Origin: a virus
Taxonomy: Duplodnaviria > Heunggongvirae > Uroviricota > Caudoviricetes
Length of the DNA stretch: 64,000 nucleotides
Reading direction: 5' to 3' (one strand)
Virus record (IMG/VR): IMGVR_UViG_3300036945_000956
In this document: positions 24,656 to 62,375 of the stretch, in pieces
Position numbering within the stretch: position 1 is the stretch's first letter
How the letters are laid out: each line of letters opens with the position of its first letter
Notes under the pieces: generated by a model
What the model was told of the DNA's origin: nothing
What the model saw: the letters and a program-made list of their open reading frames with translations, nothing else
Database searches by the model: none
Program-made: the position numbers and the translations under genes

Positions 24656-24689
24656 AGTATTTCCTTTAATTATATAAACATGTTTAAGT

Positions 24690-24996
24690 GAGCCCGTTAG
24701 GTTATACGGTGGAGCTCATACCGCAAGAGATTAAGCCGCTAGGCGAACCTCAGGTGCGAAATTTTCATTTGCCTTTAGTTTATTTAGCCGATACGAGGCC
24801 ATCCGGTAAACTCCACTCTATCTTCACACCTGTCGATCCTAATTTCGACCCCAGCAAAGATACACTACCAGACGGCGTAAAGCCTATCCCCGTGTCAAAA
24901 GACCATAAGCAGTGTATCTATGGTGGAGTCGTGCGGTACCGCCCCGCAGTCCAGAATGTGTCCATGTTGCTTCAATATTTACAAGTCTATTTATAA
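24690..24996 (-). ncRNA. ssrA: Circularly permuted (two-piece) tmRNA (ssrA)-like gene: acceptor piece followed by coding piece with a tag ORF
   Basis: On the minus strand, a T-arm UGCGG-GGCGGUA-CCGCA is followed by acceptor 3' strand CGACUCC, then A, then CCA (plus 24921 to 24950). After an intervening segment bracketed by the 9-bp inverted repeat AGAUACACU/AGUGUAUCU comes GGGGUCGAAAUUAGGAUCGACAGG (plus 24830 to 24853). That matches the tmRNA 5' consensus GGGGnnGAnnnnGGAUUCGACGGG, and its first 7 nt pair perfectly with CGACUCC. The downstream reading frame GCA AAU GAA AAU UUC GCA CCU GAG GUU CGC CUA GCG GCU UAA gives ANENFAPEVRLAA-stop (plus 24772 down to 24731). The GC content is far above the phage background. 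Confidence 0.6.
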
Positions 24997-25027
24997 CACC
25001 TTAATTAGTATATGTCAACCATTGTTT

Positions 25028-25327
25028 TCAAAGGTGTCCCCATGGTGTCCATGCTTTAGAATTATCAGTATCGGTAAAGTCATAGGTCTTTTCAAAGATG
25101 GCTTTATCACAAATATAAAGTTCAGCATCAATACCCATCATGAGATAGTCACCAGCTTTACCTTGCTTGTAATTACCTTCAAGAGTATTGACACGGAACT
25201 CTTCATGTATCTGTTTGGCATGAACAACAATAGGTCGTTTCATACAAGGTTGTAAATTATGCACATATTCATAAGTTTCAAACGTTTTCATATCAACCTC
25301 TATCATATCGCCTAATTGTTTCTTCAT
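25028..25327 (-). CDS. Hypothetical protein
   Basis: 99 aa ORF with the promoter cassette nearby (tatatgtcaacc at 25005 belongs to the downstream gene). Confidence 0.35.
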   Translation of the reverse strand: MKKQLGDMIEVDMKTFETYEYVHNLQPCMKRPIVVHAKQIHEEFRVNTLEGNYKQGKAGDYLMMGIDAELYICDKAIFEKTYDFTDTDNSKAWTPWGHL

Positions 25328-31702: not shown

Positions 31703-31762
31703 TTGATCTCTTCCCTTTTGGTTACATATACTTTATAATATAAACAAAAGTAAATGTCAACA

Positions 31763-31789
31763 AAAAAGAGCGCCGAAGCGCTCTTTTTC
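31763..31789 (-). terminator. Rho-independent terminator fused to the next promoter (GAGCGCTTCGGCGCTC hairpin plus T-run overlapping the -35 UP region)
   Basis: AAAAAGAGCGCCGAAGCGCTCTTTTT. The same element recurs at 34969 and 36630. Confidence 0.7.
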
Positions 31790-31799
31790 ACAACTATTT

Positions 31800-32468
31800 T
31801 CAGATACCTTTGAGTTCTGTATATTTTTTTCGGAGTACAATGAAGTTGTGAATATGATCATCACGGTTCTCAATAAAGACTTGTGGGTCATCACTATCGA
31901 CTGCTACAATCGTTACCAGTTGCTTGATGGGTTTACCTATACGCTCTTCGAAGGCAACAGCATAGAACGATTCTTGCATGAAGTAATTCTGAATCCACTC
32001 ACGTTTCTTTGGCTTACGAGAGGTTTTGAAGTCAATAATTGACAGTTTACCATTCCATTCTGCAACCAAGTCAACACGACCAGCTACTCGGATAAAATGT
32101 GAATAAAGAGGTGCTTCTTGGAACCAGATGTTATCTAGATGTTTGTCTAACAATGGTTTAATCTGATTGAAGGTAAACATATTGGTTGGCATTTTACCGA
32201 CGGCATAGTCTGGCTTGTTGTCAATATACTCTTCGGCAATCAAGTGAACTTCAGTTCCTCGAATGCCAGCCTGAGTGACAATTTTGGCTGCTTGTTCTTC
32301 ACCAACACTTTTCTTCCATTTTTCAAGACCATCCTTCTCCATAATAGATAGGACTGTAGTGACCGATGGATACTTTTCACCTGTTGGTGGGTAATAGAAT
32401 CTTCCAGTTGGAGTAGTATCACAATGTAGATCAGGTAGAATTAACCCGTGTTTCACATGATTAAACAT
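31800..32468 (-). CDS. PD-(D/E)xK superfamily nuclease (RecB/YqaJ-like)
   Basis: The motif GRVDLVAEWNGKLSIIDFKTS gives a D..E.K pattern. 222 aa. Sits 3 nt downstream of the PAAR-like gene. Confidence 0.5.
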   Translation of the reverse strand: MFNHVKHGLILPDLHCDTTPTGRFYYPPTGEKYPSVTTVLSIMEKDGLEKWKKSVGEEQAAKIVTQAGIRGTEVHLIAEEYIDNKPDYAVGKMPTNMFTFNQIKPLLDKHLDNIWFQEAPLYSHFIRVAGRVDLVAEWNGKLSIIDFKTSRKPKKREWIQNYFMQESFYAVAFEERIGKPIKQLVTIVAVDSDDPQVFIENRDDHIHNFIVLRKKYTELKGI

Positions 32469-32470
32469 TT

Positions 32471-32725
32471 TTATCCTATAATTACAGTACTTGATCCTGT
32501 AGCAGAATGACCGCAGGATGCAGTATCACCAGTTTTGACTATTGACTTACCACCGATTTTAACACTTGATGTACCAGAAATAGTGGCTGCAGCATGAAGG
32601 CCAATACCATGTGGTTGCACAGCATCACCATCTACAATCACTAATTTACCATTAAAGTAAACAGTTGATTGTGATGAAATTAATGCACCACCGGCCAAAT
32701 CATTCTGAAGGCAAGCTGCCGGCAT
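32471..32725 (-). CDS. PAAR-repeat protein (gp5.4-like spike tip)
   Basis: MPAAC..., GKLVIVDGDAV and VKIGGKSIVKTGDTASCGH match PAAR motifs. 84 aa. Confidence 0.6.
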   Translation of the reverse strand: MPAACLQNDLAGGALISSQSTVYFNGKLVIVDGDAVQPHGIGLHAAATISGTSSVKIGGKSIVKTGDTASCGHSATGSSTVIIG

Positions 32726-33947: not shown

Positions 33948-34538
33948 CTAATGAAAGAATGTAATCATCTCATAAATTTCCTTCCAGCCTTTTACAACAG
34001 GAACATCTGGGTGAACAAAGTCTTTGTTATAGTCATGTTCAATTAGGACTGCCCACAAACCAAGATCATTACCACACACTGCGTTTTCTGGTTTATCTTC
34101 AATCCAGAAACAATCAGTATCTTTGTATGGAAGCAATGCCTGATCCTTATCAGCACCACAATCCAAGCAGATCACCTTTTCAAAGATGTTGGCGCCAAAG
34201 ATTGAGTTCAGATTCTTCCGCCGAAGTTTGCCGGCATATTCATTGGTACTCAGTGAGGTAATGCAATGGAAAACAAACCCATGTTCCTCATGAAGTTTCC
34301 GAACATATTTAATAGCATCACGGAAAGGAGTAAGAGAACCAATGTTAGACGATTCATTGAACTGCCGAACAAAGGCCTTCATATCAGCCTTTGGAATGTC
34401 ATATGTAATTGCCAAATCATATACACCATCAACCTTTTTGGTGTATCCATGTTCTTTCATGTAATTGTCAAATGAGTATACCCAATCAAGAAGAACACCA
34501 TCACAATCGGTTAGGATCACTTTATCTTTCAGTTTCAT
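33948..34538 (-). CDS. HAD-superfamily 5'(3')-deoxyribonucleotidase-like hydrolase
   Basis: Motif I LTDCDGVLLDW (DxDGV) and the C-terminal WIEDKPENA resemble the NT5C family. Confidence 0.5.
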   Translation of the reverse strand: MKLKDKVILTDCDGVLLDWVYSFDNYMKEHGYTKKVDGVYDLAITYDIPKADMKAFVRQFNESSNIGSLTPFRDAIKYVRKLHEEHGFVFHCITSLSTNEYAGKLRRKNLNSIFGANIFEKVICLDCGADKDQALLPYKDTDCFWIEDKPENAVCGNDLGLWAVLIEHDYNKDFVHPDVPVVKGWKEIYEMITFFH

Positions 34539-34909
34539 TTTGCACCTTTCAGGTTCATTTCAACTTCTTCAAACTTTTTATTCCGTGGTGCATAAAACCA
34601 AATGTCACCATCCCAGAGATATAAATATTGTGCACCTGTGTCTGCATGACCTTCGTTCAGATATTCATCAACAGAATTGAAAGTTTCTGGACGATCATTA
34701 TGGGCCGCTCCAGCACGGCTCTGAGCATAGTCATGATATAGAGCCGAAAGATAACCACCGTAGGCAACCTTTTGTGCGCCGAGTTCAGTGTTATACGAAT
34801 CAACAAGTGTTGCGCCAACACCGTCAACATAGCCATCAAAGTGTACATACGAGGCAATAACTTTGCCGGTGCCCTTGTCAAAATGGCCGATCATTGCAGA
34901 AGTACCCAT
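34535..34909 (-). CDS. Hypothetical protein
   Basis: 124 aa. Start ATG lies within the cassette (AAAAGGAAATGACATGGGT). Confidence 0.4.
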   Translation of the reverse strand: MGTSAMIGHFDKGTGKVIASYVHFDGYVDGVGATLVDSYNTELGAQKVAYGGYLSALYHDYAQSRAGAAHNDRPETFNSVDEYLNEGHADTGAQYLYLWDGDIWFYAPRNKKFEEVEMNLKGAK

Positions 34910-34968
34910 GTCATTTCCTTTTCATTGGTTACATATATCTTATAAAACAACTACAACCCATTGTCAAC

Positions 34969-34994
34969 AAAAAAGAGCGCCGAAGCGCTCTTTT
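34969..34994 (-). terminator. Terminator-promoter fusion (copy 2)
   Basis: AAAAGAGCGCCGAAGCGCTCTTTT directly after the RtcB stop. TTGACA at 34962 to 34967. Confidence 0.7.
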
Positions 34995-34995
34995 C

Positions 34996-36369
34996 TCACA
35001 TTTTTTTCCACGACTTTTCAAAGTTACCAGCCATGATGTTACCATATGGCATGATACGATCAACAGTCACAGCCAAACCAAAACCCAACATATCAGCCTG
35101 AACAGTAGCAGCACTTTTGTAAGCACTTGGCAATTCACTGATGTCAGGTATTCCAGACCAGAACCGAGCATCAATACCACGAGTTTCCTGTGCTACCAAT
35201 TCGGCTTCAGACAAGGTCTGTTGACGAGCAAATTGTGAACGACTGAAGATACGACCGGCACCGTGTGGTGCAAAACCTATCTCATTGTCGGCATGTGCCT
35301 TAACAAACAAAATTGGCTCAGCCATGTTCATAGGAACAATTTGAGTGTCATATGGGTCACGCAACAAAGCAGTGTTAACAGGTGTAGAACCTTTGGCGTG
35401 ATATACCAATTGATCATCACTTGGGTCACGGAATACAAAGTTGTGTGGAGTAAAGATACGATCAGTACCAGAAACAGACAAACGACTCAACACAGCATCA
35501 TGCAAACTGTTATGGTTAGCACGAGTCCAATCGTGGGCAATCTCCAAAGCATCCCAATATTCAACACCTTCGTCAGTGTCCAATGGAATCCAGGCATTCT
35601 GCTTCAACGTTTTTGGGCTCATTTGAATCCGAAACTTTTCAGCAATCTCCATACCTTTTTTATAGATACCAGCGCCAAAACCACGGCTACCGAAGTGCGA
35701 GATCAACCAAACATCACCAGTGTTTTCACTACGGCCAACAGATATAAAATGGTTACCATCGCCAGAGGTGCGCAAATGACTCATAGAAGCATTTACAGTT
35801 TTTTGATCACGAGTAAAGCGGTTAACCAAAATGCGATCCAACAAACTCAAGTCAATTTGTTCAACAGGAGTCGAATGGCCACCAGGACCAAAGTGACTCA
35901 ATTCATGTGCAACATTCAATACATCCAAAGGATCAACATCACCGAAGTTGGTGGCACTCATAGAGCAACACACATCAGCTGAGTGCATGCCAGGATGGAT
36001 AGCATTACGAGTCACAACCATACCACCCACTGGGATAGTACCAATTGAACCTGCAGGACAAGCATCTGGCATTACCGAAGCACTTACAACTGTGGGAGTC
36101 TTGACCAATTCAGCCATAGTAGCCATTACAGCATTGTAGTTTGCGGTCTCGTATTCATCACCTTGTGACAAAAATACATTAATAGCAATATTGTCTTGCA
36201 ATGGCATATACACTGGTTCTACAGGCATATTTCGTTGGATAATGTCAGCCAAGACAGAGTCATCAACTACAGCAATCTGACGCAATTCTTTCAGGATCTT
36301 ACCGATATGTGGACCTGGCTTTACACCACGGTCAATCAAATCTTTGCCAGTCCAAACATATTGTTCCAT
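34996..36369 (-). CDS. rtcB: RtcB RNA 3'-phosphate/5'-OH ligase
   Basis: ASVMPDACPAGSIG, GDGNHF, PHNF and HGAGR match the RtcB catalytic motifs. 457 aa. Confidence 0.8.
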   Translation of the reverse strand: MEQYVWTGKDLIDRGVKPGPHIGKILKELRQIAVVDDSVLADIIQRNMPVEPVYMPLQDNIAINVFLSQGDEYETANYNAVMATMAELVKTPTVVSASVMPDACPAGSIGTIPVGGMVVTRNAIHPGMHSADVCCSMSATNFGDVDPLDVLNVAHELSHFGPGGHSTPVEQIDLSLLDRILVNRFTRDQKTVNASMSHLRTSGDGNHFISVGRSENTGDVWLISHFGSRGFGAGIYKKGMEIAEKFRIQMSPKTLKQNAWIPLDTDEGVEYWDALEIAHDWTRANHNSLHDAVLSRLSVSGTDRIFTPHNFVFRDPSDDQLVYHAKGSTPVNTALLRDPYDTQIVPMNMAEPILFVKAHADNEIGFAPHGAGRIFSRSQFARQQTLSEAELVAQETRGIDARFWSGIPDISELPSAYKSAATVQADMLGFGLAVTVDRIMPYGNIMAGNFEKSWKKM

Positions 36370-36380
36370 AGTTATTCTCC

Positions 36381-36578
36381 TTAAAGACTGTTGATACGTT
36401 CAACTTCACCGCTTTGGATGTCTTTCATTGCCCGAAAATATCCTTGAGTATTGGCACGTGACATTTCTTTAAGCAGAAGATCAGCAAGACGATCTACACC
36501 ATACAGATTAAAAGGAATATCAGATTCAAGGGATCCTTCAATCAAACTGATAAGGTCATTGCGAGTCATCATGATCAT
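36381..36578 (-). CDS. Hypothetical small protein
   Basis: 65 aa. SD AGAGGAAATGA within the cassette. Confidence 0.4.
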   Translation of the reverse strand: MIMMTRNDLISLIEGSLESDIPFNLYGVDRLADLLLKEMSRANTQGYFRAMKDIQSGEVERINSL

Positions 36579-36629
36579 TTCCTCTATTGGTTACATATAC
36601 TATATAAAACAAATAGAACCCATTGTCAA

Positions 36630-36655
36630 CAAAAAAGAGCGCCGAAGCGCTCTTT
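36630..36655 (-). terminator. Terminator-promoter fusion (copy 3)
   Basis: The same GAGCGC-TTCG-GCGCTC hairpin. TTGACA at 36624 to 36629. Confidence 0.7.
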
Positions 36656-36657
36656 TC

Positions 36658-36876
36658 TCACATTTTTTTCCATGTCTTGTTGTCGACCACAGGAGTATCA
36701 AGTTCATCTAGATACTGACTACGCTGATTCAACTTTTCTCTCCGTTTGTCACGAATGGATTGTTTCTTGTCATCATAGTCAAAGTCTGGAGCCCAATCAC
36801 TACCATAATCTTCTGCATAGGCATTACGCTTTTTCGACATCGCTTTTCTCATTAATAATGTTACCGAATGCTTCAT
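36658..36876 (-). CDS. Hypothetical basic protein
   Basis: 72 aa. Confidence 0.35.
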   Translation of the reverse strand: MKHSVTLLMRKAMSKKRNAYAEDYGSDWAPDFDYDDKKQSIRDKRREKLNQRSQYLDELDTPVVDNKTWKKM

Positions 36877-39716: not shown

Positions 39717-40655
39717 TCAACCACTTTTTTGCAAAATGTTGTGCATTAGATTCTTCCATTGAATTGCACGATTATCCCAACTATAGACCACATCAGCAAT
39801 TGACTTTTCAACGGCAAGATTATTCATATGTTTTGATAGCATAGTTTTATCATTGTGGATCATAATTGCTTGTCGAAGATTGTTATAGAAAATCATTGCG
39901 TGAGTATTTGGATCTTCATGATAGTCATACATATGAGTAAGACTCAATGATGTTTCTGGTAGCGCAGCCAACGATGAGTGGACACAAGTAAGCCCAGCAG
40001 ACATTGCTTCAATAAGAACTAGGCATGATGTTTCAGCCCATGTAGATGGATAAGCAAGAATATGATTGCGCTTGAGTTCTTCACGAATCTGATCATTTGA
40101 TACTGATTTGCTATAATTGATCTGAGGATGATCCTCAAGTTTCTTAAATAGATCCTTGTGTTGTTCATCACGCTCGGGCCATGCATATAGATCAAATGAA
40201 CTGAATATATTCAATTCTAAGTTTGGAAACTCTTTTGCCAATGGAACAAAAGCTGCATATAGAATATCCAACCCACGATGGGGAGTAGAGTAATACATCA
40301 GACGAATTTTGTCTGTTGGCTTAGTATGTTCTTCAATTGGAGTGATTGCATTTTTCAATACAACACCAGCTGAAGGTGGCACACCAAGATAATCAAAGAA
40401 TTGTTGTTTCTGCCAATGACTTACAAAGACAAGTTTGTCAAAGTTTTTCCAACCACCATTACGTAGATGATCATGCATAGGATCAAGTGCAAGGTCATGT
40501 AATACCAAAATGTTCTTCTTGGTAAAACTAATATTTGTTTCACGTGAATGCATAATATTAAAATGTGAAAGTAACTCGGCAGGGAGAGTATTAATTCTCC
40601 CTGCCATCAGTTCAGTGCCGCCTCTTGGCTTTAATTCAGACATCATATCCGGCAT
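39717..40655 (-). CDS. Glycosyltransferase, GT4-like (GT-B fold)
   Basis: ETSCLVLIEAMSAGLTCV matches the E-x7-E motif of retaining GT4 enzymes. 312 aa. Confidence 0.55.
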   Translation of the reverse strand: MPDMMSELKPRGGTELMAGRINTLPAELLSHFNIMHSRETNISFTKKNILVLHDLALDPMHDHLRNGGWKNFDKLVFVSHWQKQQFFDYLGVPPSAGVVLKNAITPIEEHTKPTDKIRLMYYSTPHRGLDILYAAFVPLAKEFPNLELNIFSSFDLYAWPERDEQHKDLFKKLEDHPQINYSKSVSNDQIREELKRNHILAYPSTWAETSCLVLIEAMSAGLTCVHSSLAALPETSLSLTHMYDYHEDPNTHAMIFYNNLRQAIMIHNDKTMLSKHMNNLAVEKSIADVVYSWDNRAIQWKNLMHNILQKSG

Positions 40656-43277: not shown

Positions 43278-43721
43278 TCAGAAATCCTCCGTTCCTTGAT
43301 ACACATCAGCAACAAACACACCATTCTCACGCAGCATCTTCACAACACGAGGACGGTCATCAAACCACAGATCAGGCTTTTGGCCCCAATCAAGAACAAT
43401 ATGTGCCAGAAGTAAACTCTTGACAATGTCGTCTGACCGATGATCTTTCTCCGCCCTCATGTATAATTTCTTAAACCTAATGTTATGTCTGTTCAACCAG
43501 TTTTCAGTTACTTCACGATTTTCTTCACCACGACCAGTGCACAGGATAACATGATGGCCTAGAAGAGACATGCTACGAGCCATAAAGCAAATCGGTTCAA
43601 TAGGTATGTCATTGATCATTTCCGACTTGAACATATTCCAGTTCTTTGGTTCTTCACGCCAGTAATGAACACGGTGGCTCAGATCAGCAAGTGTACCATC
43701 AATATCGAAACAGATCAGCAT
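43278..43721 (-). CDS. HAD-superfamily phosphatase
   Basis: Motif I ICFDIDGTLAD (DxDGT). 147 aa. Confidence 0.5.
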   Translation of the reverse strand: MLICFDIDGTLADLSHRVHYWREEPKNWNMFKSEMINDIPIEPICFMARSMSLLGHHVILCTGRGEENREVTENWLNRHNIRFKKLYMRAEKDHRSDDIVKSLLLAHIVLDWGQKPDLWFDDRPRVVKMLRENGVFVADVYQGTEDF

Positions 43722-43723
43722 AG

Positions 43724-44005
43724 TTATTCTCCTTCAAACCCGATCAACTCAACCACCGTATAACAAGGGGCCACAGTAAACGGCAAACCAAATTTATCTT
43801 TTTTGAACAAACCCCACAAAAAGTCATAGATGGCTTGTTCAGCTTCTTTACGAGTTTCAAATTGTTTGTCTGAGTATTCATCACCAAACAAGAATTCACC
43901 TGGAGTACCTTCAGACCAGTTAGAAGCAACAGGGCGGATCATCAAGCCTTCTTTAGTTAATTGACGGATTACATAAACTCTGGTCAACATGGTTATTTCC
44001 TTCAT
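43724..44005 (-). CDS. Hypothetical protein; likely start MLTRV after the cassette SD
   Basis: ATGAAGGAAATAACCATG within the promoter cassette. Confidence 0.4.
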   Translation of the reverse strand: MKEITMLTRVYVIRQLTKEGLMIRPVASNWSEGTPGEFLFGDEYSDKQFETRKEAEQAIYDFLWGLFKKDKFGLPFTVAPCYTVVELIGFEGE

Positions 44006-44050
44006 TGGTTACATATACTTTATAAAACAATTCAAAGCAAATGTCAACAA

Positions 44051-44374
44051 CTATTTTTGTAAAAAGAATAATATAAGCCAAAAGGCTGACATTATTGTGA
44101 ACACACTCACAGCAATAAAGATTTGTCCATTAACTGCATCTCTCAAGTCTCGTTTTACTTTTTGAGTTGTATTAATTTGTTCTTGTAACATTCTATAATA
44201 TTTCTGGGACTCAGTTCGAGCTTGAGTAACCAGCTGTGCCCACTGCTCGTCTCGCTCTTGGTCAATTGGTGCATCAGCTTTCAAACCTTTCTTGCGAGCC
44301 ATGCGAAGGCAAGCAATAGCTTCATCTTCGGAAGTGGTGCTTAGAGCCTTGGCTATTAGTTGATTAGCACTCAT
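44051..44374 (-). CDS. Hypothetical membrane-anchored protein (C-terminal TM)
   Basis: 107 aa. C-terminal IFIAVSVFTIMSAFWLILFFL. Confidence 0.35.
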   Translation of the reverse strand: MSANQLIAKALSTTSEDEAIACLRMARKKGLKADAPIDQERDEQWAQLVTQARTESQKYYRMLQEQINTTQKVKRDLRDAVNGQIFIAVSVFTIMSAFWLILFFLQK

Positions 44375-44748
44375 TTTCTGAACTCCAAGTAATTGTTCAA
44401 CAGACCTTCGATGTTCGCTTTACCGATAAGATTCTTTGAGTGAACATAGAATGCAAAGTCTGCAGGGAACTGCATATGTGGTTCATCAGGAAAGTCAAGG
44501 GCATCATTAATTAGCCTTTTGGCAAGCACATTTCCTGTCAGTTGATTTACACCCAAGTCATGGTCAAACGAGATAAACTTAGGCATACTGCATCGGCTGA
44601 TGATCATTCTACTTGCAGATGAAACACTCCGAACAACCACCCACTCTTCATTACGATACATTTCTTGAACCTGCCAAGGAGCCCAAGTCACATCAGCAGG
44701 CATTCTTTCATCATCTAGAAATAGATTCCAAGTCATGTCAATATCCAC
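44371..44748 (-). CDS. Hypothetical protein
   Basis: 125 aa. Confidence 0.35.
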   Translation of the reverse strand: MDIDMTWNLFLDDERMPADVTWAPWQVQEMYRNEEWVVVRSVSSASRMIISRCSMPKFISFDHDLGVNQLTGNVLAKRLINDALDFPDEPHMQFPADFAFYVHSKNLIGKANIEGLLNNYLEFRK

Positions 44749-57040: not shown

Positions 57041-57457
57041 TTAGCCAGCACTACGAGTAATAAAGTTAACTCGAACCTTAGTTGGCTTGAAGTATTTGTC
57101 AATAACATCTTGTGCAATGCCAATATCAACTGGTTTACAAGAGAAGATGTCAATATATGCATCGCCATTGGAATCAACAAGGTGACCGGTAATATTACTA
57201 GTTTCAATCATTTGACAGAAGCTAATACCTGCTTTATCAGCCGCATGAGTAGCAAAGTGTTCGATCATTGGCTCGCCAAAGGCTACCATGTCGATTGCAG
57301 GAACAAGTTCTTTGATAAACTTGTAAACATTTTCTTTGCTAGTGATAAGATCTTTATCACAAGCAGCGCAATCAAACATTGCCATATAACCCCAGTATGC
57401 CATTGAAACTCCTAATAATGAAAAATGGTGCCCCAGGTAGGAATCGAACCCACACAC
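57041..57457 (-). CDS. speD: S-adenosylmethionine decarboxylase proenzyme (SpeH-type, class 1A); probable start at the internal MAYWGY
   Basis: GYMAMFDCAAC resembles SpeH HLVAEFYECD. ...IETSNITGHLVDSNGDAYIDIFSCK resembles [23 protein letters not shown]. Confidence 0.55.
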   Translation of the reverse strand: MCGFDSYLGHHFSLLGVSMAYWGYMAMFDCAACDKDLITSKENVYKFIKELVPAIDMVAFGEPMIEHFATHAADKAGISFCQMIETSNITGHLVDSNGDAYIDIFSCKPVDIGIAQDVIDKYFKPTKVRVNFITRSAG

Positions 57458-57500
57458 TCGCCTTACAAGAGCGAACCTCTACCATTAAGGATACAAGGGC
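57426..57500 (-). tRNA. tRNA (anticodon loop CUUGUAA, probably Thr-UGU), CCA encoded
   Basis: T-arm GTGGG-TTCGATT-CCTAC. Acceptor 7 bp with one mismatch. Confidence 0.55.
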
Positions 57501-57504
57501 ATAT

Positions 57505-57579
57505 TGGAGCGGGCAATGGGGATCGAACCCACGACAATCAGTTTGGAAAACTGGAGCTCTACCACTGAGCTATACCCGC
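57505..57579 (-). tRNA. tRNA-Gly (UCC)
   Basis: GCGGGTATAGCTCAGTGGTAGAGC...TTTCCAA loop...GGGTTCGATCCCC...TGCCCGCTCCA. Confidence 0.7.
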
Positions 57580-57773
57580 ATTAAGTGTCTGTCTCTCCAG
57601 ACTGTCACATCAGCCCCAGAAGGCGTTTACCCGATGTTTGGTAGGTAGCTTCATATATTCGCACTTCACAAATTTATTACAGGATGGTCTGTGTGTGCAT
57701 TGAATGTACTATCTAACCATCTACAATAAGATCTTACGATCATGCTTGGTGGCAGTATCCATCCTAATCTTAT

Positions 57774-58229
57774 TTATACGACCAGCGTTGCCCATTGCTG
57801 AATTTTTTGTTTTAAAATAGCAGTTGCTTCGTATTTATTTTTCTCACGATTCCAAATCCGATCACCATCTTGCTTACCGTATTTTGCTACCATAGCCCAT
57901 ACACGAGGTAGGGTTAGAATTTGAAAGTATGACTCGTTTTCAGGCTTACGCTTTTGTTCGACTGATGTATAAGGCACACCAGCAATATAAGCACGAGCAA
58001 GGAAGGTGGCACGATTCTCATTCCGAACATCCCACTTACGGTGGTTATTCAATGAACAATATGTATTGAATGCTTTATCATCCCAACGAGGATACATATC
58101 GTTGTTTCCAGCGGCATGCCATTTATTTAGCGCCCATTGATACTGTTTGAGTTGCTTCCGTTCTTCAAATTTAATGATACGGGCTTCTTCGGATAGGTGT
58201 TTCGATTTTACTTTAAGTTCTACAGACAT
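57774..58229 (-). CDS. Hypothetical protein (151 aa)
   Basis: ORF just downstream of the tRNA-like element at 58622. Confidence 0.4.
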   Translation of the reverse strand: MSVELKVKSKHLSEEARIIKFEERKQLKQYQWALNKWHAAGNNDMYPRWDDKAFNTYCSLNNHRKWDVRNENRATFLARAYIAGVPYTSVEQKRKPENESYFQILTLPRVWAMVAKYGKQDGDRIWNREKNKYEATAILKQKIQQWATLVV

Positions 58230-58621
58230 TTTATTCTCCTAAATTGATTTCAAATTGGTTTCATGTTACAGTCCAATTTAGGGTGGTTTAGTAATCTACA
58301 AGTTATCACTCATTGTGATTCTCCTTTTTTAGAATTTCTTCGTATTTAGATACGACAACATCCAGTTCATCAACCTGTTTAACACTTTCTTCTGTGAACT
58401 TAAGATCACCTGATTTAATTTTAGTCATCATAGATTCAAGTCTATCAGCCATATTTTGTAGAGTCACAGTTAGTTCTCCTTGTTAATATCCAATATATCA
58501 GCCATGTCATGATTCACATCAGCATGACCTTGTTCATCAGCTCTTACACACAAAACAACATCACGCAAGGCCAATCTGGTAAGTTGTGATTTAGATACGA
58601 CATAAATTAGCCTTTCTTTAA

Positions 58622-58697
58622 TGGTGGGTCTACTGGGACTCGAGCCCAGATTGTTCGTTTTAGAGGCGATTGCATACACCGTTCATGCTCTAGACCC
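58622..58697 (-). ncRNA. tRNA-like element with an aberrant anticodon arm (possible tRNA pseudogene or noncanonical tRNA)
   Basis: Perfect acceptor GGGTCTA/TAGACCC-A-CCA, D-stem GCAT/ATGC and T-arm CTGGG-CTCGAGT-CCCAG. No 5 bp anticodon stem can be drawn. Confidence 0.35.
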
Positions 58698-58829
58698 AAA
58701 TTTGGGATGCCCTATACTTCCCGATATGACAGTCAGCATTTGATTTCTTCCATAGCCGACATCCAACTATAGCATATACCGTTACTAATTACTCTACTCT
58801 ATCAACGATCTAACTTTGAGTAGAAATTC

Positions 58830-59345
58830 TTATGTTATTTTTATCAATGTGCGGTTATGAATTCGTTGGATATTGTAACCGCCGGCAAGGATAGTGCGGA
58901 TATTGATATGATGATCACCAACGTTGAAACTACCTTCATAACCATCACTCATGTGTGTCAGATCAAAGTCAGGAATAGTCTCAATATTCTTCTTACGCAG
59001 AGCCGAGATGATTTGCAAATCACGTTTTGCAATAAGAGCATTCGTATTCTTCATCATGTTCTCAAGGCCACCGGCAAGACCACGATCGGCAATCAAATTC
59101 ATCATGGATTGACTACCCCAGTACTTGATCACTTCAGGACCACGCAATTTGTAATCCATACGGCCTGTATGTTGAGCATCCCATTCCTTCATATGAGGTT
59201 GGAAACCTTTGATCTTTTTCTCTGCCCATTCTTGGTCAGACTTAATCAGTTTGGCATTCAACTCTGCAAACGCTTTAGTGATCTTGGCTTGCATATCTTT
59301 TTCAATTGAAAAGGTCGAGAAATTTGATACGGTCATGGCGAACAT
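58830..59345 (-). CDS. Hypothetical protein (171 aa)
   Basis: ORF 40 nt downstream of a promoter cassette (taatgtcaacaac at 59385). Confidence 0.4.
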   Translation of the reverse strand: MFAMTVSNFSTFSIEKDMQAKITKAFAELNAKLIKSDQEWAEKKIKGFQPHMKEWDAQHTGRMDYKLRGPEVIKYWGSQSMMNLIADRGLAGGLENMMKNTNALIAKRDLQIISALRKKNIETIPDFDLTHMSDGYEGSFNVGDHHINIRTILAGGYNIQRIHNRTLIKIT

Positions 59346-59401
59346 CTCCTGTTGATATAATACTTATATATCACATAGAAAGTAATGTCAACAACTATTT
59401 T

Positions 59402-59493
59402 TGGCGGATCGTGTAGGATTTGAACCTACGGTAGAACTTTTGCCCTACGACGGTTTAGCAAACCGCTGATTTAAACCACTCATCCAACGATCC
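59402..59493 (-). tRNA. tRNA-Ser (GCU), long variable arm
   Basis: Acceptor GGATCGT/ACGATCC-G-CCA. Anticodon loop TTGCTAA. Long variable arm. T-arm GTAGG-TTCAAAT-CCTAC. Confidence 0.7.
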
Positions 59494-59608
59494 AATTCTT
59501 CATATGAAGGATACACCGGTCTTAATCCACCAGACATCGGTTCATCCACGTACACGCGGCAGCCATAAGCAAGACGATCGAGCACGCTTCACGGTGTATC
59601 CATGATAT

Positions 59609-59686
59609 AAAGAATATTGGTGCCTTCGGTGAGATTCGAACTCACACTAGACCGCTTTTGAGGCAGTCGCCTCTACCAGGTTGGGC
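59609..59686 (-). tRNA. tRNA, type I, anticodon loop CUCAAAA (reads as CAA by position; identity uncertain)
   Basis: Acceptor GCCTTCG/CGAAGGC-A-CCA. T-arm GTGAG-TTCGAAT-CTCAC. Confidence 0.5.
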
Positions 59687-60283
59687 TACGAAGGCATTAC
59701 GTATTTCTTTGTTATGGATTTTCTTGATCATGTCATCACGCATATCAATGCAGACGCAGCACCAACACTTATCCACCTTTGTCTTCTTGCCGTGCATATT
59801 GATATTGGCAGCGGCAGGATGATTTAGTGATCCGCGTGGCTTGTGATCACGATTGCGACCACGACCATAGACTGGAGATTTAGCCATTGTAATCCTCATC
59901 AGTTGCTTTATAGTAATCATCCATGCGCTTTTCTTGCATTGTCTTGCTTTTCCAGTGCTTGCGAGGATTGCCGCACATATAACAAGAACAATTATGTGGA
60001 GTATGCGCCAGTTGACCAATAGACGATTCATCAAGTGGTCGCCATTTGGAAAAGATCTTAACAACCCATTTCTTTTTCTTCAACTCTTGAAACCGCCGAA
60101 AAGCTCTATCACGCATTAGACTCTCCTATAGCATTTAACAGAATGTTTGGGGAAAGCTAAGATTACTCTTAGCGGCACCTTGCCATACTCCCCATCAAAG
60201 ATACACTGTTTGGATTCAAACCTTGTTCTAGTCTTGTCGATCTGCGCTTCTCACAGTGCTGACAGAGTATCTATGGTGGGGAG

Positions 60284-60916
60284 TTAGTTAAATTTAAGTT
60301 TTCTTCCGATTGACCAACCATTTGGTATTAATTGATCTCTATTTATTTTTTTACTTTGTTTTAATTCTATAGAATGAATCCACATTGTCCCATATTGTGA
60401 ATTGTTAGGACCTTTTTGATGATCAATTTTATCATATGTCAGTTTCTTTTTTTCAATAGCTTCTGGTGCACGTGAAGCTTCGTTTGCAATACGTCTAACA
60501 TTGGGATCAAAAAATCCTAATTGTTTTTCTTTAAGAGTTTTAATCGTTTTAGAATTACCTTTTCTTTTATCTAAAGATTGTTGGAATTCTGGCGATCTGA
60601 ATGGATTTTTAGCTTCACCTAACTCATTATTTATATAACCCCAACCGCCTCTGCCACCAGCACAAAGATTGTATGTATTTTCTTTTAAACAAAACTCTTC
60701 AGTTACTAACTCCGCTTCTTTAGCGTCCATATCAGATTCATTATCAAATTGGAAGAGTATTTCTTTTTCAAAATTCTCAATTCCATATTTTTTAATAGAT
60801 TCCTTTATCAACTTACCTGAACCCATATAACCATCATTGAGGTTCCGAGTTTGATGCTTACCAACATAAATTTTGTTATTCACTTTGTTTGTTATTTTAT
60901 AAATCGTATAGAACAT
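60284..60916 (-). CDS. GIY-YIG homing endonuclease (Seg-like)
   Basis: FYTIYKITNKVNNKIYVGKHQT ... YMGSG. Late promoter TATAAATA at 60941 to 60948 and SD AAGGAG. Confidence 0.7.
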   Translation of the reverse strand: MFYTIYKITNKVNNKIYVGKHQTRNLNDGYMGSGKLIKESIKKYGIENFEKEILFQFDNESDMDAKEAELVTEEFCLKENTYNLCAGGRGGWGYINNELGEAKNPFRSPEFQQSLDKRKGNSKTIKTLKEKQLGFFDPNVRRIANEASRAPEAIEKKKLTYDKIDHQKGPNNSQYGTMWIHSIELKQSKKINRDQLIPNGWSIGRKLKFN

Positions 60917-61116
60917 TCAATTACTCCTTGCATATCAGTATTTATAATACTATTTATTTCATAGGAGTATCGGAATCGAACCGATAGTTTTTGTTTTCTT
61001 GCTGTAAACATTCTAAATTAGTATTGCTAGGGGTTTCGGACGCTCCCTATTACGCAGCACTACGCTACTCGACTTACGCCTAAGTCTGGGTCTGTTAGTT
61101 CCGGCCTAGCAATTTT

Positions 61117-61194
61117 TGGTGCCTCTAGTCGGATTCGAACCGACACTGTATGGCTTCTAAGACCATTGCCTGCTACCAATTGGGCTACAGAGGC
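61117..61194 (-). tRNA. tRNA, type I, anticodon loop CUUAGAA (UAG by position; identity uncertain)
   Basis: Acceptor GCCTCTG/TAGAGGC-A-CCA. T-arm GTCGG-TTCGAAT-CCGAC. Confidence 0.5.
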
Positions 61195-61199
61195 ATATT

Positions 61200-61273
61200 T
61201 GGTAGTCTGTGAGGGAATCGAACCCACGTAGTCGCCGTGTAAAGACGATGTTCTACCATTGAACTAACAGACC
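61200..61273 (-). tRNA. tRNA-Val (UAC)
   Basis: Acceptor GGTCTGT/ACAGACT-A-CCA. D-stem GTTC/GAAC. Anticodon stem TCGTC/GGCGA with loop TTTACAC. Confidence 0.65.
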
Positions 61274-61416
61274 ATAATTGCTGGAGTCGACGTGATAATT
61301 CAATCGACTCCGAAACCCTTTTGTGCACATGGTACATAGGGAAATTTGGTGAAGTGGATTTACGTCGTATGCCACTTCGGTGTTGAGATTTCGACACGGA
61401 GTACTCAACGTATATT

Positions 61417-61490
61417 GGCGATCTATGGGGTAATCGAAACCCCGCCCTCGGATAGACAATCCGGTACGCTACCACTACGTCAATAGACCA
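61417..61490 (-). tRNA. tRNA-Asp (GUC) probable
   Basis: Acceptor GGTCTAT/ATAGATC-G-CCA. T-arm GGGGT-TTCGATT-ACCCC. Anticodon loop TTGTCTA on a 4 bp stem. Confidence 0.55.
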
Positions 61491-61495
61491 ATTTT

Positions 61496-61570
61496 GGAGC
61501 GGAGAATGGGAATCGAACCCACGACCTTCTCGTTGGCAACGAGTGGCTCTACCTCTGAGCTACCTCCGCA
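61496..61570 (-). tRNA. tRNA-Gly (GCC)
   Basis: GCGGAGGTAGCTCAGAGGTAGAGC...TTGCCAA loop...GTGGGTTCGATTCCCAT...CTCCGCTCCA. Confidence 0.65.
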
Positions 61571-61778
61571 ATTTAATTCTGGTGTCGATCTTCCTGCAAA
61601 TCCTGAGAAGGAATTTAACGATTTTACCAGCAGGCCGTCGATCATAAAGTAAAAATCTCGGTTATAAATACACCGCCAGAAACTGAATATGATGGAATAA
61701 CGAGCATCGGCCATGAACCGATAGTCTTTTTAGTTTCCATGTCAATACTTTGTAAACTCTGACACAACCATCATAACT

Positions 61779-61853
61779 TGGTGGAGAATGGGGGATTCGA
61801 ACCCCCGACTCAAGCGTGCAAGGCTAGTGTTTTCCCGATTAGACTAATTCCCC
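61779..61853 (-). tRNA. tRNA (anticodon not resolved by eye)
   Basis: Acceptor GGGGAAT/ATTCTCC-A-CCA. T-arm GGGGG-TTCGAAT-CCCCC. Confidence 0.5.
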
Positions 61854-62053
61854 GTTATTTGTTGTTTCTCATAAAGAATGAACACTTCTTAAAGTTTTCA
61901 AGACCTATCTCTTTGATAGTTGCCACAAACGCGGCAATTAATGCTTCTTCTCGTGTCATTGTTCATTCCTTTTAATTTAACAGGATCGTTTTGTCCGCTA
62001 AGACATCATTGCATTGATTTAGCGTTTTGGTTTGCTGAACCGATCCTAAACTA

Positions 62054-62144
62054 TGGCGGAGAGTGTGAGATTCGAACTCACGGAACGCTATTAACGTTCG
62101 GTAGTTTTCAAGACTACAGGCATAATCCTCTCGCCCAACTCTCC
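62054..62144 (-). tRNA. tRNA-Ser (UGA), long variable arm
   Basis: Acceptor GGAGAGT/ACTCTCC-G-CCA. Anticodon stem GTAGT/ACTAC with loop CTTGAAA. Variable arm CGAACGTTAATAGCGTTCC. Confidence 0.7.
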
Positions 62145-62151
62145 GTATATT

Positions 62152-62227
62152 TGGCTCCTGAGGAGGGTTACGATCCCCCGACCAACGAGTTAACAGCTCG
62201 GCGCTCTACCAACTGAGCTACTCAGGA
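62152..62227 (-). tRNA. tRNA-Asn (GUU)
   Basis: TCCTGAGTAGCTCAGTTGGTAGAGC...CTGTTAA loop...CTCAGGAGCCA. Confidence 0.65.
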
Positions 62228-62299
62228 ACATTGGTTATAATATGAAGGGCGACTATATCCTTCATCATTTTACCCTGACTAGCAGGTCTGCGCTGTATT

Positions 62300-62375
62300 T
62301 GGTTGCGGTGGGACGGACTCGAACCGTCGATCTACTGGTTATGAGCCAGTCAAGATGCCTCTTCTCTACCCCGCA
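62300..62375 (-). tRNA. tRNA-Met/Ile-like (CAU anticodon), slightly irregular acceptor and T-arm junction
   Basis: Anticodon stem ACTGG/CCAGT with loop CTCATAA. D-stem GAGA/TCTT. T-arm GACGG-TTCGAGT-CCGTC. The acceptor has 1 mismatch and an extra nucleotide. Confidence 0.5.

What the first reader, a model, noticed from the sequence alone, without database searches (positions are those of the whole stretch)
34996..36369. RtcB RNA ligase encoded alongside a 13-tRNA cluster, a likely tRNA-repair countermeasure
All RtcB catalytic motifs are present (C-x-x-S/G pocket, GDGNHF, HNF, HGAGR). T4 repairs host-cleaved tRNA with Pnk plus Rnl1. An RtcB (3'-P/5'-OH ligase) could do the same job in one step against anticodon nucleases of the PrrC, RloC or colicin type. 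A HAD nucleotidase-like gene and an unknown 124 aa gene sit immediately downstream. No Pnk or Rnl was seen in this window.
Basis: partly seen in the sequence, partly recalled or inferred. Interest (0 to 1): 0.65.

Follow-up and report, generated by a model that had tools for sequence, protein, structure and literature searches.

The report
Phage RtcB RNA ligase on a swappable cassette
The gene is an intact but divergent RtcB RNA-sealing enzyme, and it sits on a small cassette that almost identical marine T4-like phages have lost, which fits the already published (untested) idea that phages carry RtcB to repair RNA cut by host defences.

Summary
ORF 34996-36369 (minus strand, 457 aa) is an RtcB-family ligase. 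It scores 112.6 bits on Pfam PF01139 (cut-off 27), its model has the RtcB fold (pLDDT 90.8, Foldseek E 6e-23), and all metal ligands and the histidine nucleophile are present.

It is not new in kind. Homologues occur in 530 phage records. The "RtcB plus tRNAs counters host tRNA cleavage" idea was published in 2011 and 2021 but, in the papers I found, never tested.

- The 13 tRNAs lie 21-27 kb away, not alongside.
- The HAD-like gene is a backbone gene, present in 44 of 44 related loci that lack RtcB.
- The 124-aa gene also occurs without RtcB and is not an archease.
- The window does hold a stand-alone Pnkp-type 3'-phosphatase and a cREC domain, though no kinase or Rnl.

New points:
- RtcB and a 65-aa gene form a cassette of about 1.66 kb, bounded by 93-nt terminator/promoter repeats of the PeSL type.
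- A phage about 95% identical lacks the cassette and keeps an RtcB-derived scar.
- dN/dS is 0.13.
- The clade lacks both guanine-contact residues of canonical RtcB, has four extra invariant Cys/His residues, and has an N-terminal module resembling the tail of CCA-adding enzymes.

The parts
34996..36369 (-). rtcB, 457 aa: a divergent RtcB-family 3'-phosphate/5'-OH RNA ligase
   Evidence: PF01139 112.6 bits. PHROG 1075 E 6e-78. AF2 model pLDDT 90.8; its best Foldseek match is P. horikoshii RtcB 1uc2, E 6e-23, TM 0.67. Catalytic D132, C135, N206, H207, H225, H309 and H369 are conserved. dN/dS is 0.13 against a 93%-identical homologue.
36220..36369 (-). Codons 1-50 of rtcB: a clade-specific three-helix N-terminal module (TGKDLIxxGxxPG...) that resembles the C-terminal tail motif of class II CCA-adding enzymes
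   Evidence: Helices 8-13, 21-30 and 37-47 in the model. PF13735 E 1e-3, matched by 4 of 28 clade members. A profile of this segment hits six CCA-adding-enzyme structures, all at their C-terminal tails: 3h37 E 0.01, 4x4w, 9ns2, 8cbm, 1ou5, 1miv. Each hit is marginal on its own.
36381..36578 (-). p65, a 65-aa ORF of unknown function; the first gene of the cassette, co-transcribed with rtcB by position
   Evidence: No Pfam, PHROG or NCBIfam match. Only 3 homologous clusters in 5.8 billion proteins. Absent from all 80 related loci. An 88%-identical copy lies two genes upstream of an Rnl5-type RNA ligase in L101.
36586..36678 (-). Upstream cassette boundary: a PeSL-like composite repeat. On the coding strand it holds the last codons ..WKKM-stop of the preceding gene, a GC hairpin AAAAGAGCGC-TTCG-GCGCTCTTTT, a TTGACA-17 nt-TATATA promoter and a conserved GTATATGTAACCAA.
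   Evidence: Direct-repeat family D3, 92% identical to the 34924-35016 copy. Sequence read.
34924..35016 (-). Downstream cassette boundary: the second copy of the same repeat. It overlaps the last 7 codons of rtcB, places a terminator hairpin right after the rtcB stop codon, and provides the promoter for the 124-aa gene.
   Evidence: In L020 a single copy joins the two flanks.
34535..34909 (-). 124-aa gene next to the cassette. Not an RtcB partner and not an archease; function unknown.
33948..34538 (-). 196-aa HAD-like protein (DxDG motif). A conserved backbone gene, not linked to RtcB.
   Evidence: PHROG 420, unknown function. Sub-threshold HAD-IA match. Present in 44 of 44 related loci that lack RtcB. 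Absent from other RtcB loci.
43278..43721 (-). Stand-alone Pnkp-type HAD polynucleotide 3'-phosphatase (147 aa; DxDxT motif FDIDGT). Context only: a predicted RNA/DNA end-healing enzyme.
   Evidence: PF25109 E 9.5e-24. PDB Pnkp1 4xrp E 3.8e-9 and T4 Pnkp 1ltq residues 162-296 E 2e-5. PHROG 415/505 'polynucleotide kinase', phosphatase half only. Sequence.
44371..44736 (-). cREC domain protein (121 aa), a predicted cyclic-phosphate phosphoesterase. Context only.
   Evidence: PF20274 E 2.7e-16. The role is predicted, not tested, in PMC7824862 and PMC9503650. Sequence.
57426..62375 (-). Cluster of 13 tRNA genes, interspersed with ORFs including a GIY-YIG homing endonuclease. Context only; 21-27 kb from rtcB.
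24687..25036 (-). Permuted (two-piece, alphaproteobacterial-type) tmRNA gene. Context only: a second translation-rescue element.
   Evidence: ARAGORN. Rfam RF04321 99.6 bits and RF01849 86.7 bits.

Best explanation
The ORF encodes a catalytically competent RNA ligase of the RtcB family. It is carried with a 65-aa ORF on a cassette of about 1.66 kb in a hyperplastic early region of an uncultured marine T4-like myovirus. The phage's nearest cultured relatives are the Sinorhizobium phiM12/phiN3 group, at about 35-39% amino-acid identity.

Shown:
- The fold, the binuclear-metal ligands and the histidine nucleophile are conserved.
- The gene has a strong Shine-Dalgarno sequence. Upstream of p65 there is a TTGACA-17 nt-TATA(T/A)A promoter, and a GC hairpin followed by a T run lies immediately after the rtcB stop codon.
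- The cassette is bounded by 93-nt direct repeats of this terminator/promoter composite.
- The gene is under purifying selection.
- Closely related phages lack it.

Inferred:
- Host RNA polymerase transcribes the cassette early in infection.
- The enzyme reseals RNAs carrying 2',3'-cyclic-phosphate or 3'-phosphate and 5'-OH ends, made by metal-independent host ribonucleases such as anticodon nucleases, toxin-antitoxin or abortive-infection RNases, and HEPN enzymes.
- tRNA is the most likely substrate class, because the clade-specific N-terminal module resembles the tail of tRNA nucleotidyltransferases.
- Resealing keeps translation running. The benefit depends on the host strain, which explains why the cassette is gained and lost by recombination between the flanking repeats.
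- It acts alone. No conserved partner gene was found.
For: Enzyme identity: and (all seven catalytic positions invariant in 121 clade members).

Expression signals: (sequence read directly).

Accessory, mobile status:
- 0 of 44 syntenic relatives carry RtcB.
- L020 is about 95% identical in nucleotides on both flanks. Its two alignment blocks overlap by 110 nt, which is a single repeat copy.
- In L020 the upstream gene still ends in WKKM-stop. That ending matches the rtcB 3' end and the W-K-K that is conserved across the clade. This marks L020 as a deletion derivative.
- The same cassette position is occupied in L102 and L103, whose RtcB is 93% identical, but there the upstream small gene is unrelated.
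- The 53-nt promoter core occurs 10 times between 27 and 48 kb. This matches the PeSL mechanism described for T4-type phages (PMC4122927).

Selection: dN 0.040, dS 0.311, ratio 0.13.

RNA-maintenance context in the same window: Pnkp-type phosphatase, cREC, 13 tRNAs and tmRNA.

Possible tRNA-binding module.

Alternative ligase in a related slot: an 88%-identical p65 homologue lies beside an Rnl5-type RNA ligase.

Published hypothesis.
Against: - No substrate, host or host nuclease is known, and no experiment on any phage RtcB turned up in the literature searches.
- The tRNA cluster is distant from rtcB, and I did not test whether tRNA content tracks RtcB presence.
- The similarity of the N-terminal module to the CCA-enzyme tail is marginal (E 0.01 to 4).
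- The clade lacks both residues that read the guanine base in P. horikoshii RtcB. The Glu206 position is F, Y, S or N, and the Lys480 position is M or A, in 121 of 121 sequences. Canonical GTP-dependent chemistry therefore cannot be assumed.
- A 3'-phosphatase in the same genome would destroy the 3'-phosphate end that RtcB needs, so the two enzymes may serve different pathways.
- The simple promoter/terminator scanner did not flag the sites. They rest on my direct reading of the sequence and on their repetition.
Confidence: 0.6

Rival explanations
1. It is a general RNA repair enzyme rather than a tRNA-specific one. It reseals rRNA, mRNA or tmRNA cut by ribotoxins such as colicin E3-like or MazF-like enzymes, working with the phage tmRNA to rescue stalled ribosomes, in analogy to the bacterial PrfH-RtcB2 pair.
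For: RtcB enzymes join any suitable 3'-P/5'-OH ends, a property of the family. A bacterial RtcB repairs damaged ribosomes (PMC9304027, listed). The phage encodes a tmRNA. There is no gene-order link to the tRNA cluster.
Against: The protein scores far below the cut-off of the PrfH-coupled RtcB model TIGR03073 (37.5 bits against 271.8). No PrfH-like gene appeared among the ORFs scanned. The N-terminal module points weakly towards tRNA.
Confidence: 0.2
2. It matures the phage's own RNAs, for example by joining pieces of phage tRNAs or the permuted tmRNA, or by splicing.
For: RtcB is the tRNA splicing ligase in archaea and animals. The phage has 13 tRNAs and a permuted tmRNA.
Against: A phage about 95% identical has deleted the gene, and 44 of 44 syntenic relatives lack it, so it is not needed for core phage RNA maturation. 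ARAGORN and Rfam report complete, uninterrupted tRNAs. As established knowledge, two-piece tmRNAs function without ligation.
Confidence: 0.05
3. It acts on DNA, or caps nucleic-acid ends, during replication or repair rather than repairing RNA.
For: RtcB can ligate 5'-OH DNA strands in vitro (PMC8051266 abstract). The gene sits among replication and recombination genes: RNase H, gp32, gp59 and a PD-(D/E)XK nuclease. A polynucleotide 3'-phosphatase is also encoded.
Against: No conserved linkage to any DNA-repair gene across loci. The gene is dispensable in close relatives.
Confidence: 0.05
4. It is a passenger gene carried along by cassette shuffling, with no current function.
For: It lies in a hyperplastic region where cassettes are exchanged, and it is absent from most relatives.
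Against: dN/dS is 0.13 over 1374 nt. All catalytic residues and more than 100 clade-invariant positions are intact. The gene has intact expression signals.
Confidence: 0.05

Closest known systems
Canonical RtcB (E. coli RtcB; Pyrococcus horikoshii RtcB, PDB 1uc2/4dwq; human RTCB)
   Same: Same fold (Foldseek E about 1e-22, TM 0.6-0.7). Same two-metal ligand set (Asp, Cys, three His) and same histidine nucleophile in HGAGR.
   Different: - Only 15-20% identical.
- The Pfam model matches only the C-terminal 60%, and every NCBIfam RtcB model scores far below its cut-off.
- The guanine-contacting Glu and Lys are replaced in all 121 clade members.
- PDxHxG is replaced by an invariant PDACP, and there are extra invariant residues H125, H129 and C134.
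- There is an extra N-terminal helical module of about 50 aa.
- No rtcA or rtcR neighbours.
Phage RtcB genes already annotated: mycobacteriophage cluster K1, jumbo phages, Tenacibaculum phage PTm1/PTm5, Cellulophaga Calle/phi38:1, Rhizobium RHEph10-like phages
   Same: Same family. The closest are 40-52% identical over the full length, including the N-terminal module. They have the same proposed role: protecting tRNA from host cleavage.
   Different: This copy is in an uncultured marine T4-like phage with no nucleotide-level match in the phage collection. Its neighbours differ from those in every other locus examined. The mycobacteriophage copies are only about 26% identical.
T4 Pnkp + Rnl1 tRNA repair pathway against the PrrC anticodon nuclease
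   Same: The same biological logic is proposed: a phage restores tRNA cut by a host nuclease. A Pnkp-type phosphatase domain is present in the window.
   Different: The chemistry differs: direct 3'-P/5'-OH sealing instead of heal-then-seal. No kinase domain and no Rnl1 or Rnl2 were found in the ORFs scanned. No PrrC-like target is known for the unknown host.
PeSL (promoter-early stem-loop) cassettes of T4-type phages (Arbiol et al. 2010; Comeau et al. 2014)
   Same: A composite terminator hairpin plus sigma-70-type promoter, repeated at many intergenic sites of an early region. It bounds an indel between nearly identical phages.
   Different: The repeat sequence is specific to this phage group. 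Here the repeat has extended about 21 nt into the coding 3' ends. Circular cassette intermediates were not, and cannot be, tested here.
RtcB2-PrfH ribosome rescue and repair module
   Same: An RtcB paralogue dedicated to repairing the translation apparatus after ribotoxin damage.
   Different: The score on the PrfH-coupled model is 37.5 bits against a cut-off of 271.8. No PrfH gene was seen.

Membership tests
RtcB family (PF01139) | Profile HMM match above the curated threshold | tested here: met
   112.6 bits against a gathering score of 27, E 3.5e-32. The match covers residues 189-445 only. All 28 aligned relatives also match.
RtcB family (PF01139) | RtcB fold | tested here: met
   AF2 model pLDDT 90.8, pTM 0.85. 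The top 16 Foldseek PDB hits are all RtcB/RTCB, E 6e-23 to 8e-17; the next hit has E 0.04.
RtcB family (PF01139) | Binuclear metal site: M1 ligands His234, His329, Cys98 and M2 ligands Cys98, Asp95, His203 (P. horikoshii numbering, PMC9745838) | tested here: met
   H225, H309, C135, D132 and H207 align to these positions in the profile-to-PDB alignment and in the alignment with E. coli RtcB. They are invariant in 121 clade sequences.
RtcB family (PF01139) | Histidine nucleophile that forms the His-GMP intermediate (Pho His404, Eco His337) in the HGAGR motif | tested here: met
   H369 in APHGAGR; invariant.
RtcB family (PF01139) | Guanine-specific contacts (Pho Glu206 to N1/N2, Lys480 to O6) | tested here: not met
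   Position 210 is Ser here, and F 93, Y 21, S 5, N 2 across the clade. Positions 446/447 are Met/Ala, invariant or nearly so. There is no Glu or Lys at these positions in any of 121 sequences. This bears on cofactor specificity, not on family membership as usually defined.
RtcB family (PF01139) | GTP- and Mn2+-dependent joining of 3'-P or 2',3'-cyclic-P ends to 5'-OH ends | not testable with these tools
   Needs an enzyme assay.
Orthologue of E. coli RtcB (NF007153) or of PrfH-coupled RtcB (TIGR03073) | Score above the NCBIfam equivalog cut-off | tested here: not met
   64.2 bits against 407, and 37.5 bits against 271.8.
RtcB-archease pair | An archease gene present or adjacent | tested here: not met
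   [not shown]
T4-type heal-and-seal tRNA repair (Pnkp + Rnl1) | Polynucleotide 5'-kinase domain | tested here: not met
   Only two Walker A motifs occur in ORFs of 80 aa or more: PhoH and a likely homing endonuclease. The Pnkp-like protein aligns only to the phosphatase half.
T4-type heal-and-seal tRNA repair (Pnkp + Rnl1) | Polynucleotide 3'-phosphatase of the DxDxT type | tested here: met
   43278-43721: PF25109 84.6 bits against 27.6. FDIDGT motif. Matches the T4 Pnkp phosphatase domain.
T4-type heal-and-seal tRNA repair (Pnkp + Rnl1) | ATP-dependent RNA ligase (Rnl1 or Rnl2) | tested here: not met
   No RNA_ligase family hit among about 70 window ORFs scanned. The window covers only part of the genome.
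PeSL-bounded mobile cassette of T4-type phages | Composite terminator stem-loop plus early sigma-70-type promoter, repeated in intergenic regions | tested here: met
   The hairpin GAGCGC-TTCG-GCGCTC with a T run, followed by TTGACA-17-TATA(T/A)A, read. Ten copies of the promoter core and three of the full 93-nt composite. The generic scanner missed them.
PeSL-bounded mobile cassette of T4-type phages | Indel between closely related genomes with end points in the repeats | tested here: met
   The window and L020 are about 95% identical on both flanks, with a single repeat copy at the junction in L020.
PeSL-bounded mobile cassette of T4-type phages | Early transcription from the promoter; excised circular intermediates | not testable with these tools
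   Needs transcript mapping and PCR on infected cells.

The most novel reading that the evidence does not exclude
The roughly 460-aa 'PDACP / HPGMHSADxCCS' clade, to which this phage enzyme belongs, may be a functionally distinct kind of RtcB. The clade is common in marine Flavobacteriaceae, Rhodobacterales and their phages. On this reading it uses a nucleotide cofactor other than GTP, or recognises GTP in a new way, because both guanine-reading residues are gone. It would have a modified metal or redox centre, because of four extra invariant Cys/His residues beside the metal site. And it would be targeted to tRNA by an N-terminal module borrowed from CCA-adding enzymes. In addition, the cassette slot may be a swappable RNA-ligase locus, in which related phages carry either RtcB or an Rnl5-type ligase behind the same 65-aa gene.
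Probability: 0.2. Interest if true: 0.55.

Novelty: new member of a known kind. Interest (0 to 1): 0.32.

Why it matters
That makes it ordinary.

What could make it useful is the natural experiment found here. Nearly identical environmental phages differ by a clean RtcB cassette indel, and the loss left a traceable scar. If the host were identified, comparing such a pair on strains with and without RNase-based defences would be a direct test of whether phage RtcB is a counter-defence gene. I found no such test in the literature I could search.

The clade-level features also flag an abundant, biochemically uncharacterised branch of RtcB that is worth an enzyme assay. These features are the lost guanine contacts, the extra Cys/His residues and the CCA-enzyme-like N-terminal module.

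Tried and rejected
- Nucleotide search of the locus against 50,697 phage records found nothing. The phage is only distantly related to cultured ones.
- Is the 124-aa gene an RtcB partner or an archease? Neighbours of RtcB in PTm5, Calle_1 and RHph_X66 do not align with it. Its family occurs without RtcB. Its fold is not archease. Rejected.
- Is the 196-aa HAD-like gene an RtcB partner? It is absent from other RtcB loci and present in all RtcB-less relatives. Rejected. It has no PDB sequence relative.
- Looked for a conserved partner in bacterial and phage loci of the clade. Contexts differ everywhere: a WYL regulator, integrase and DUF3825 in Allomuricauda; ribosomal protein genes in Actibacterium; a second RtcB, GmrSD and a methylase in L017. 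No recurrent partner.
- ORF 52304-53017 has a Walker-A-like motif and was considered as a Pnk kinase. PHROG matches point to a homing endonuclease instead. Rejected.
- The generic promoter/terminator scan did not report the repeat-borne sites. I relied on reading the sequence directly.
- Burroughs and Aravind 2016 (NAR), the main survey of RNA repair systems, is not held in the library, so its classification of RtcB clades could not be checked.
It was repeated with alignment A3.
Full report
**1. The observation.**
- The ORF listing gives a 457-aa ORF at 34996-36369 on the minus strand, exactly as reported. It has an AAGGAG Shine-Dalgarno sequence 8 nt before the ATG.
- Pfam RtcB (PF01139) matches with E 3.5e-32 and 112.6 bits against a gathering score of 27, but only over residues 189-445.
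- PHROG 1075 'tRNA splicing ligase' matches the full length, E 6e-78.
- phmmer against PDB sequences finds the P. horikoshii, T. thermophilus and human RtcB entries. A profile of 28 relatives raises this to E 2e-23.
- An AlphaFold model built on 32 homologues has mean pLDDT 90.8. Its 16 best Foldseek hits in the PDB are all RtcB/RTCB, with E 6e-23 to 8e-17 and TM about 0.6-0.7. The next hit has E 0.04.

**2. Catalytic residues.**
- PMC9745838 lists the P. horikoshii active site. Metal 1 is bound by His234, His329 and Cys98. Metal 2 is bound by Cys98, Asp95 and His203. The nucleophile is His404. Asn202 contacts the GTP phosphates. Glu206 and Lys480 read the guanine base. The paper also gives the E. 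coli equivalents.
- The profile-to-PDB alignment and an alignment with E. coli RtcB fetched from NC_000913.3 map these to D132, C135, N206, H207, H225, H309 and H369. All seven are invariant in 121 members of the clade.
- Two features do not carry over. The position of Glu206 is Ser here, and F, Y, S or N across the clade. The position of Lys480 falls on an invariant Met-Ala. No clade member has Glu or Lys there.
- The canonical PDxHxG is an invariant PDACP in this clade. H125, H129 and C134 are additional invariant residues next to the metal-binding D132 and C135.
- All NCBIfam RtcB models score far below their cut-offs. The protein is an RtcB by fold and catalytic core, but it belongs to a divergent branch whose nucleotide specificity should not be assumed.

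**3. The clade and its N-terminal module.**
- The database search returns thousands of relatives. The best 120 are about 460 aa and align over 98-100% of the query. At 47-51% identity they include chromosomal genes of Tenacibaculum, Polaribacter, Aquimarina, Allomuricauda and Actibacterium.
- In the phage collection 530 records hold a homologue. The closest are Tenacibaculum phage PTm5 (48%), Cellulophaga phages (45%) and Rhizobium phages (40%). The mycobacteriophage copies are about 26% identical.
- Residues 1-50 form three helices in the model and carry the motif TGKDLIxxGxxPGxxxGxxL.
- Pfam PF13735, the tail region of tRNA nucleotidyltransferases, matches it weakly: E 1e-3 here, and 4 of 28 members at E up to 0.01.
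- A profile of this segment alone retrieves six distinct CCA-adding-enzyme structures from the PDB, each at its C-terminal tail: 3h37 E 0.01, plus 4x4w, 9ns2, 8cbm, 1ou5 and 1miv.
- Each hit is marginal, but their recurrence at the same position suggests real homology. That this module binds tRNA is my inference.

**4.
- The 196-aa protein has a DxDG motif and a sub-threshold HAD-IA match, and belongs to PHROG 420, function unknown. It is a backbone gene, as section 5 shows.
- Neighbours of RtcB in eight other loci differ in every case. No conserved partner exists.

**5. RtcB is on a mobile cassette.**
- I used the adjacent RNase H as a probe and fetched 80 related viral contigs.
- Of these, 44 have at least 3.5 kb downstream of RNase H. 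All 44 show the backbone RNase H - DUF6433 - ... - HAD196 - p96 (absent in 3 loci) - PhoH, and most also have PAAR and PD-(D/E)XK. None has RtcB or the 65-aa ORF.
- L020 (IMGVR_UViG_3300017778_002158) is about 95% identical in nucleotides to the window on both sides. Window 40000-36570 aligns to L020 3313-6743. Window 35016-31718 aligns to L020 6634-9931. The two blocks overlap by 110 nt in L020.
- That overlap is a single copy of a repeat that occurs twice in the window, at 36586-36678 and 34924-35016. The two copies are 93 nt long and 92% identical. A third copy lies at 31717-31809.
- Read on the coding strand, the repeat holds, in order: the last codons ..W-K-K-M-stop; a hairpin AAAAGAGCGC-TTCG-GCGCTCTTTT running into a T tract; TTGACA, 17 nt, TATATA or TATAAG; and a conserved GTATATGTAACCAA.
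- The 53-nt promoter core occurs ten times between 27.3 and 48 kb, in front of minus-strand genes.
- This is the promoter-early stem-loop (PeSL) architecture reported to mediate cassette indels in the hyperplastic regions of T4-type phages (PMC2839356, PMC4122927).
- The cassette therefore runs from about 36678 to 35017 and contains p65 (36381-36578) and rtcB. It has its own promoter and a terminator right after the rtcB stop codon.

**6. Direction of the event.**
- The W-K-K near the C-terminus is conserved across the RtcB clade: W454 in 117 of 121 sequences (consensus).
- In the window, the gene upstream of the cassette (p72) also ends in ..KTWKKM-stop.
- In L102, which carries RtcB at 93% identity in the same position, the p72 homologue ends ..DRLRKRF-stop. 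In L021, which has no cassette, it ends ..KSGKKF-stop.
- So in the window lineage the repeat has spread about 21 nt into the 3' end of p72, copying the rtcB end.
- L020 has no RtcB, yet its p72 ends in ..KTWKKM-stop, followed by the promoter variant that sits downstream of rtcB in the window.
- The simplest reading is that L020 descends from a cassette-bearing phage and lost p65 and rtcB by recombination between the two repeats.
- In L102 and L103 the small gene in front of rtcB is unrelated to p65, so this slot is itself being exchanged.

**7. Selection.**
- Against the L102 copy, rtcB shows dN 0.040, dS 0.311 and a ratio of 0.13 by the Nei-Gojobori method. The gene is maintained by purifying selection where it is present.

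**8.
- 43278-43721 encodes a 147-aa stand-alone Pnkp-type phosphatase. Evidence: PF25109 E 9.5e-24; Pnkp1 4xrp E 3.8e-9 and T4 Pnkp residues 162-296 E 2e-5; PHROG 415/505; FDIDGT motif.
- 44371-44736 encodes a cREC domain (PF20274 E 2.7e-16). Iyer and colleagues predict this domain to open cyclic phosphates and find it linked to RNA ligases in phages. It has not been tested experimentally.
- There is no kinase. The only Walker A motifs are in PhoH and in a likely homing endonuclease.
- No ATP-dependent RNA ligase appeared among about 70 ORFs scanned.
- A permuted, alpha-type tmRNA lies at 24687-25036.
- The 13th tRNA, at 58625-58697, has the anticodon CUA.
- A 3'-phosphatase removes the end that RtcB needs, so these enzymes probably serve separate routes. 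Together they show a phage invested in RNA-end chemistry and in keeping translation running.

**9. A lead on p65.**
- p65 has only three homologous clusters in the large database.
- One of them is 88% identical and lies on a short contig, L101, two genes upstream of a protein with the PHA02142 OB-fold domain (PF21189, E 2.3e-30) and the RNA_ligase domain (PF09414, E 7e-9). That protein is an ATP-dependent ligase of the DraRnl/Rnl5 type, with a KLDG motif.
- Another homologue, 53% identical, is followed by an unrelated 94-aa protein.
- Two of the three contexts pair p65 with non-homologous RNA ligases. The sample is too small to conclude anything.

**10. Comparison with what is known, and verdict.**
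- Phage RtcB is widely annotated.
- The hypothesis that it protects tRNA against host cleavage was put forward for cluster K1 mycobacteriophages in 2011 and generalised for jumbo phages in 2021. Literature searches found no experimental test of a phage RtcB.
- The finding is therefore a correct identification of a new member of a known kind, with a standard interpretation that remains unproven.
- Its added value lies in three things: the cassette indel between near-identical phages, the scar that shows recent loss, and the clade-level departures from canonical RtcB.
- My confidence is about 0.95 that this is an active RtcB-type ligase, about 0.6 that it serves as RNA repair against host ribonucleases, and about 0.4 that tRNA is the main substrate.

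Noticed in passing
window 24687-25036 (-): A permuted (two-piece) tmRNA gene of the alphaproteobacterial type, with tag peptide ANENFAPEVRLAA, encoded by the phage (ARAGORN; Rfam RF04321 99.6 bits, RF01849 86.7 bits). It hints at an alphaproteobacterial host and at phage investment in ribosome rescue.
   Followed up: partly
window 58625-58697 (-): The 13th tRNA, found by Rfam (44.4 bits) and missed by default ARAGORN, has the anticodon CUA, so it is a candidate amber suppressor. TAG ends 6 of 61 predicted genes, including the HAD-like gene 33948-34538. I did not test for stop-codon recoding.
   Followed up: partly
window 43278-43721 (-) and 44371-44736 (-): A stand-alone Pnkp-type 3'-phosphatase (no kinase half) and a cREC 'cyclic-phosphate processing' domain protein lie two small genes apart, 7-8 kb upstream of rtcB. 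Both belong to predicted RNA-end or ADP-ribose-processing networks. A copy of the promoter repeat sits between them at 44005-44057.
   Followed up: partly
L101 341-1569: An 88%-identical homologue of the cassette's 65-aa gene lies two genes upstream of an ATP-dependent RNA ligase of the Rnl5/DraRnl type (PF21189 + PF09414). Related phages may therefore carry different RNA ligases behind the same small gene.
   Followed up: partly
window 36658-36678 versus 34996-35016; L020 about 6620-6650: The gene upstream of the cassette ends with the same WKKM-stop codons as rtcB, apparently through spread of the flanking repeat into coding sequence. The RtcB-less phage L020 keeps this ending as a scar.
   Followed up: yes
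[not shown]
   Followed up: partly
window 53425-53730 (-) and 53727-54377 (-): A stand-alone NAD+-binding Ia domain of DNA ligase (PF22745, E 3.7e-13), without a ligase body, lies next to a metallophosphoesterase (PHROG 1649).
   Followed up: no
window 60284-60916 (-), 54477-55238 (-), 52304-53017 (-), 18198-18656 (+): There are several homing or mobile-type endonuclease genes. They are a SegE-like GIY-YIG gene inside the tRNA cluster, a NUMOD3 protein, an intron-endonuclease-like protein, and a TnsA-like endonuclease placed between baseplate and tail genes.
   Followed up: no
L017 8001-12706: A phage-like contig carries two RtcB genes (460 aa and 299 aa), separated by an EcoRI-type methylase and a GmrSD/HNH protein.
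   Followed up: no
L007 2311-8211: In an Allomuricauda chromosome the clade's RtcB sits beside a divergently oriented WYL-WCX regulator, a 300-aa protein of unknown function and DUF3825, next to an integrase. This looks like an inducible RNA-repair module on a mobile island.
   Followed up: no
window 57041-57403 (-), 46227-47171 (-), 32471-32725 (-), 40636-41001 (-): Auxiliary genes: an S-adenosylmethionine decarboxylase-like protein adjacent to the tRNA cluster, a Band 7/SPFH protein, a PAAR-motif protein and a WYL_2 domain protein.
   Followed up: no
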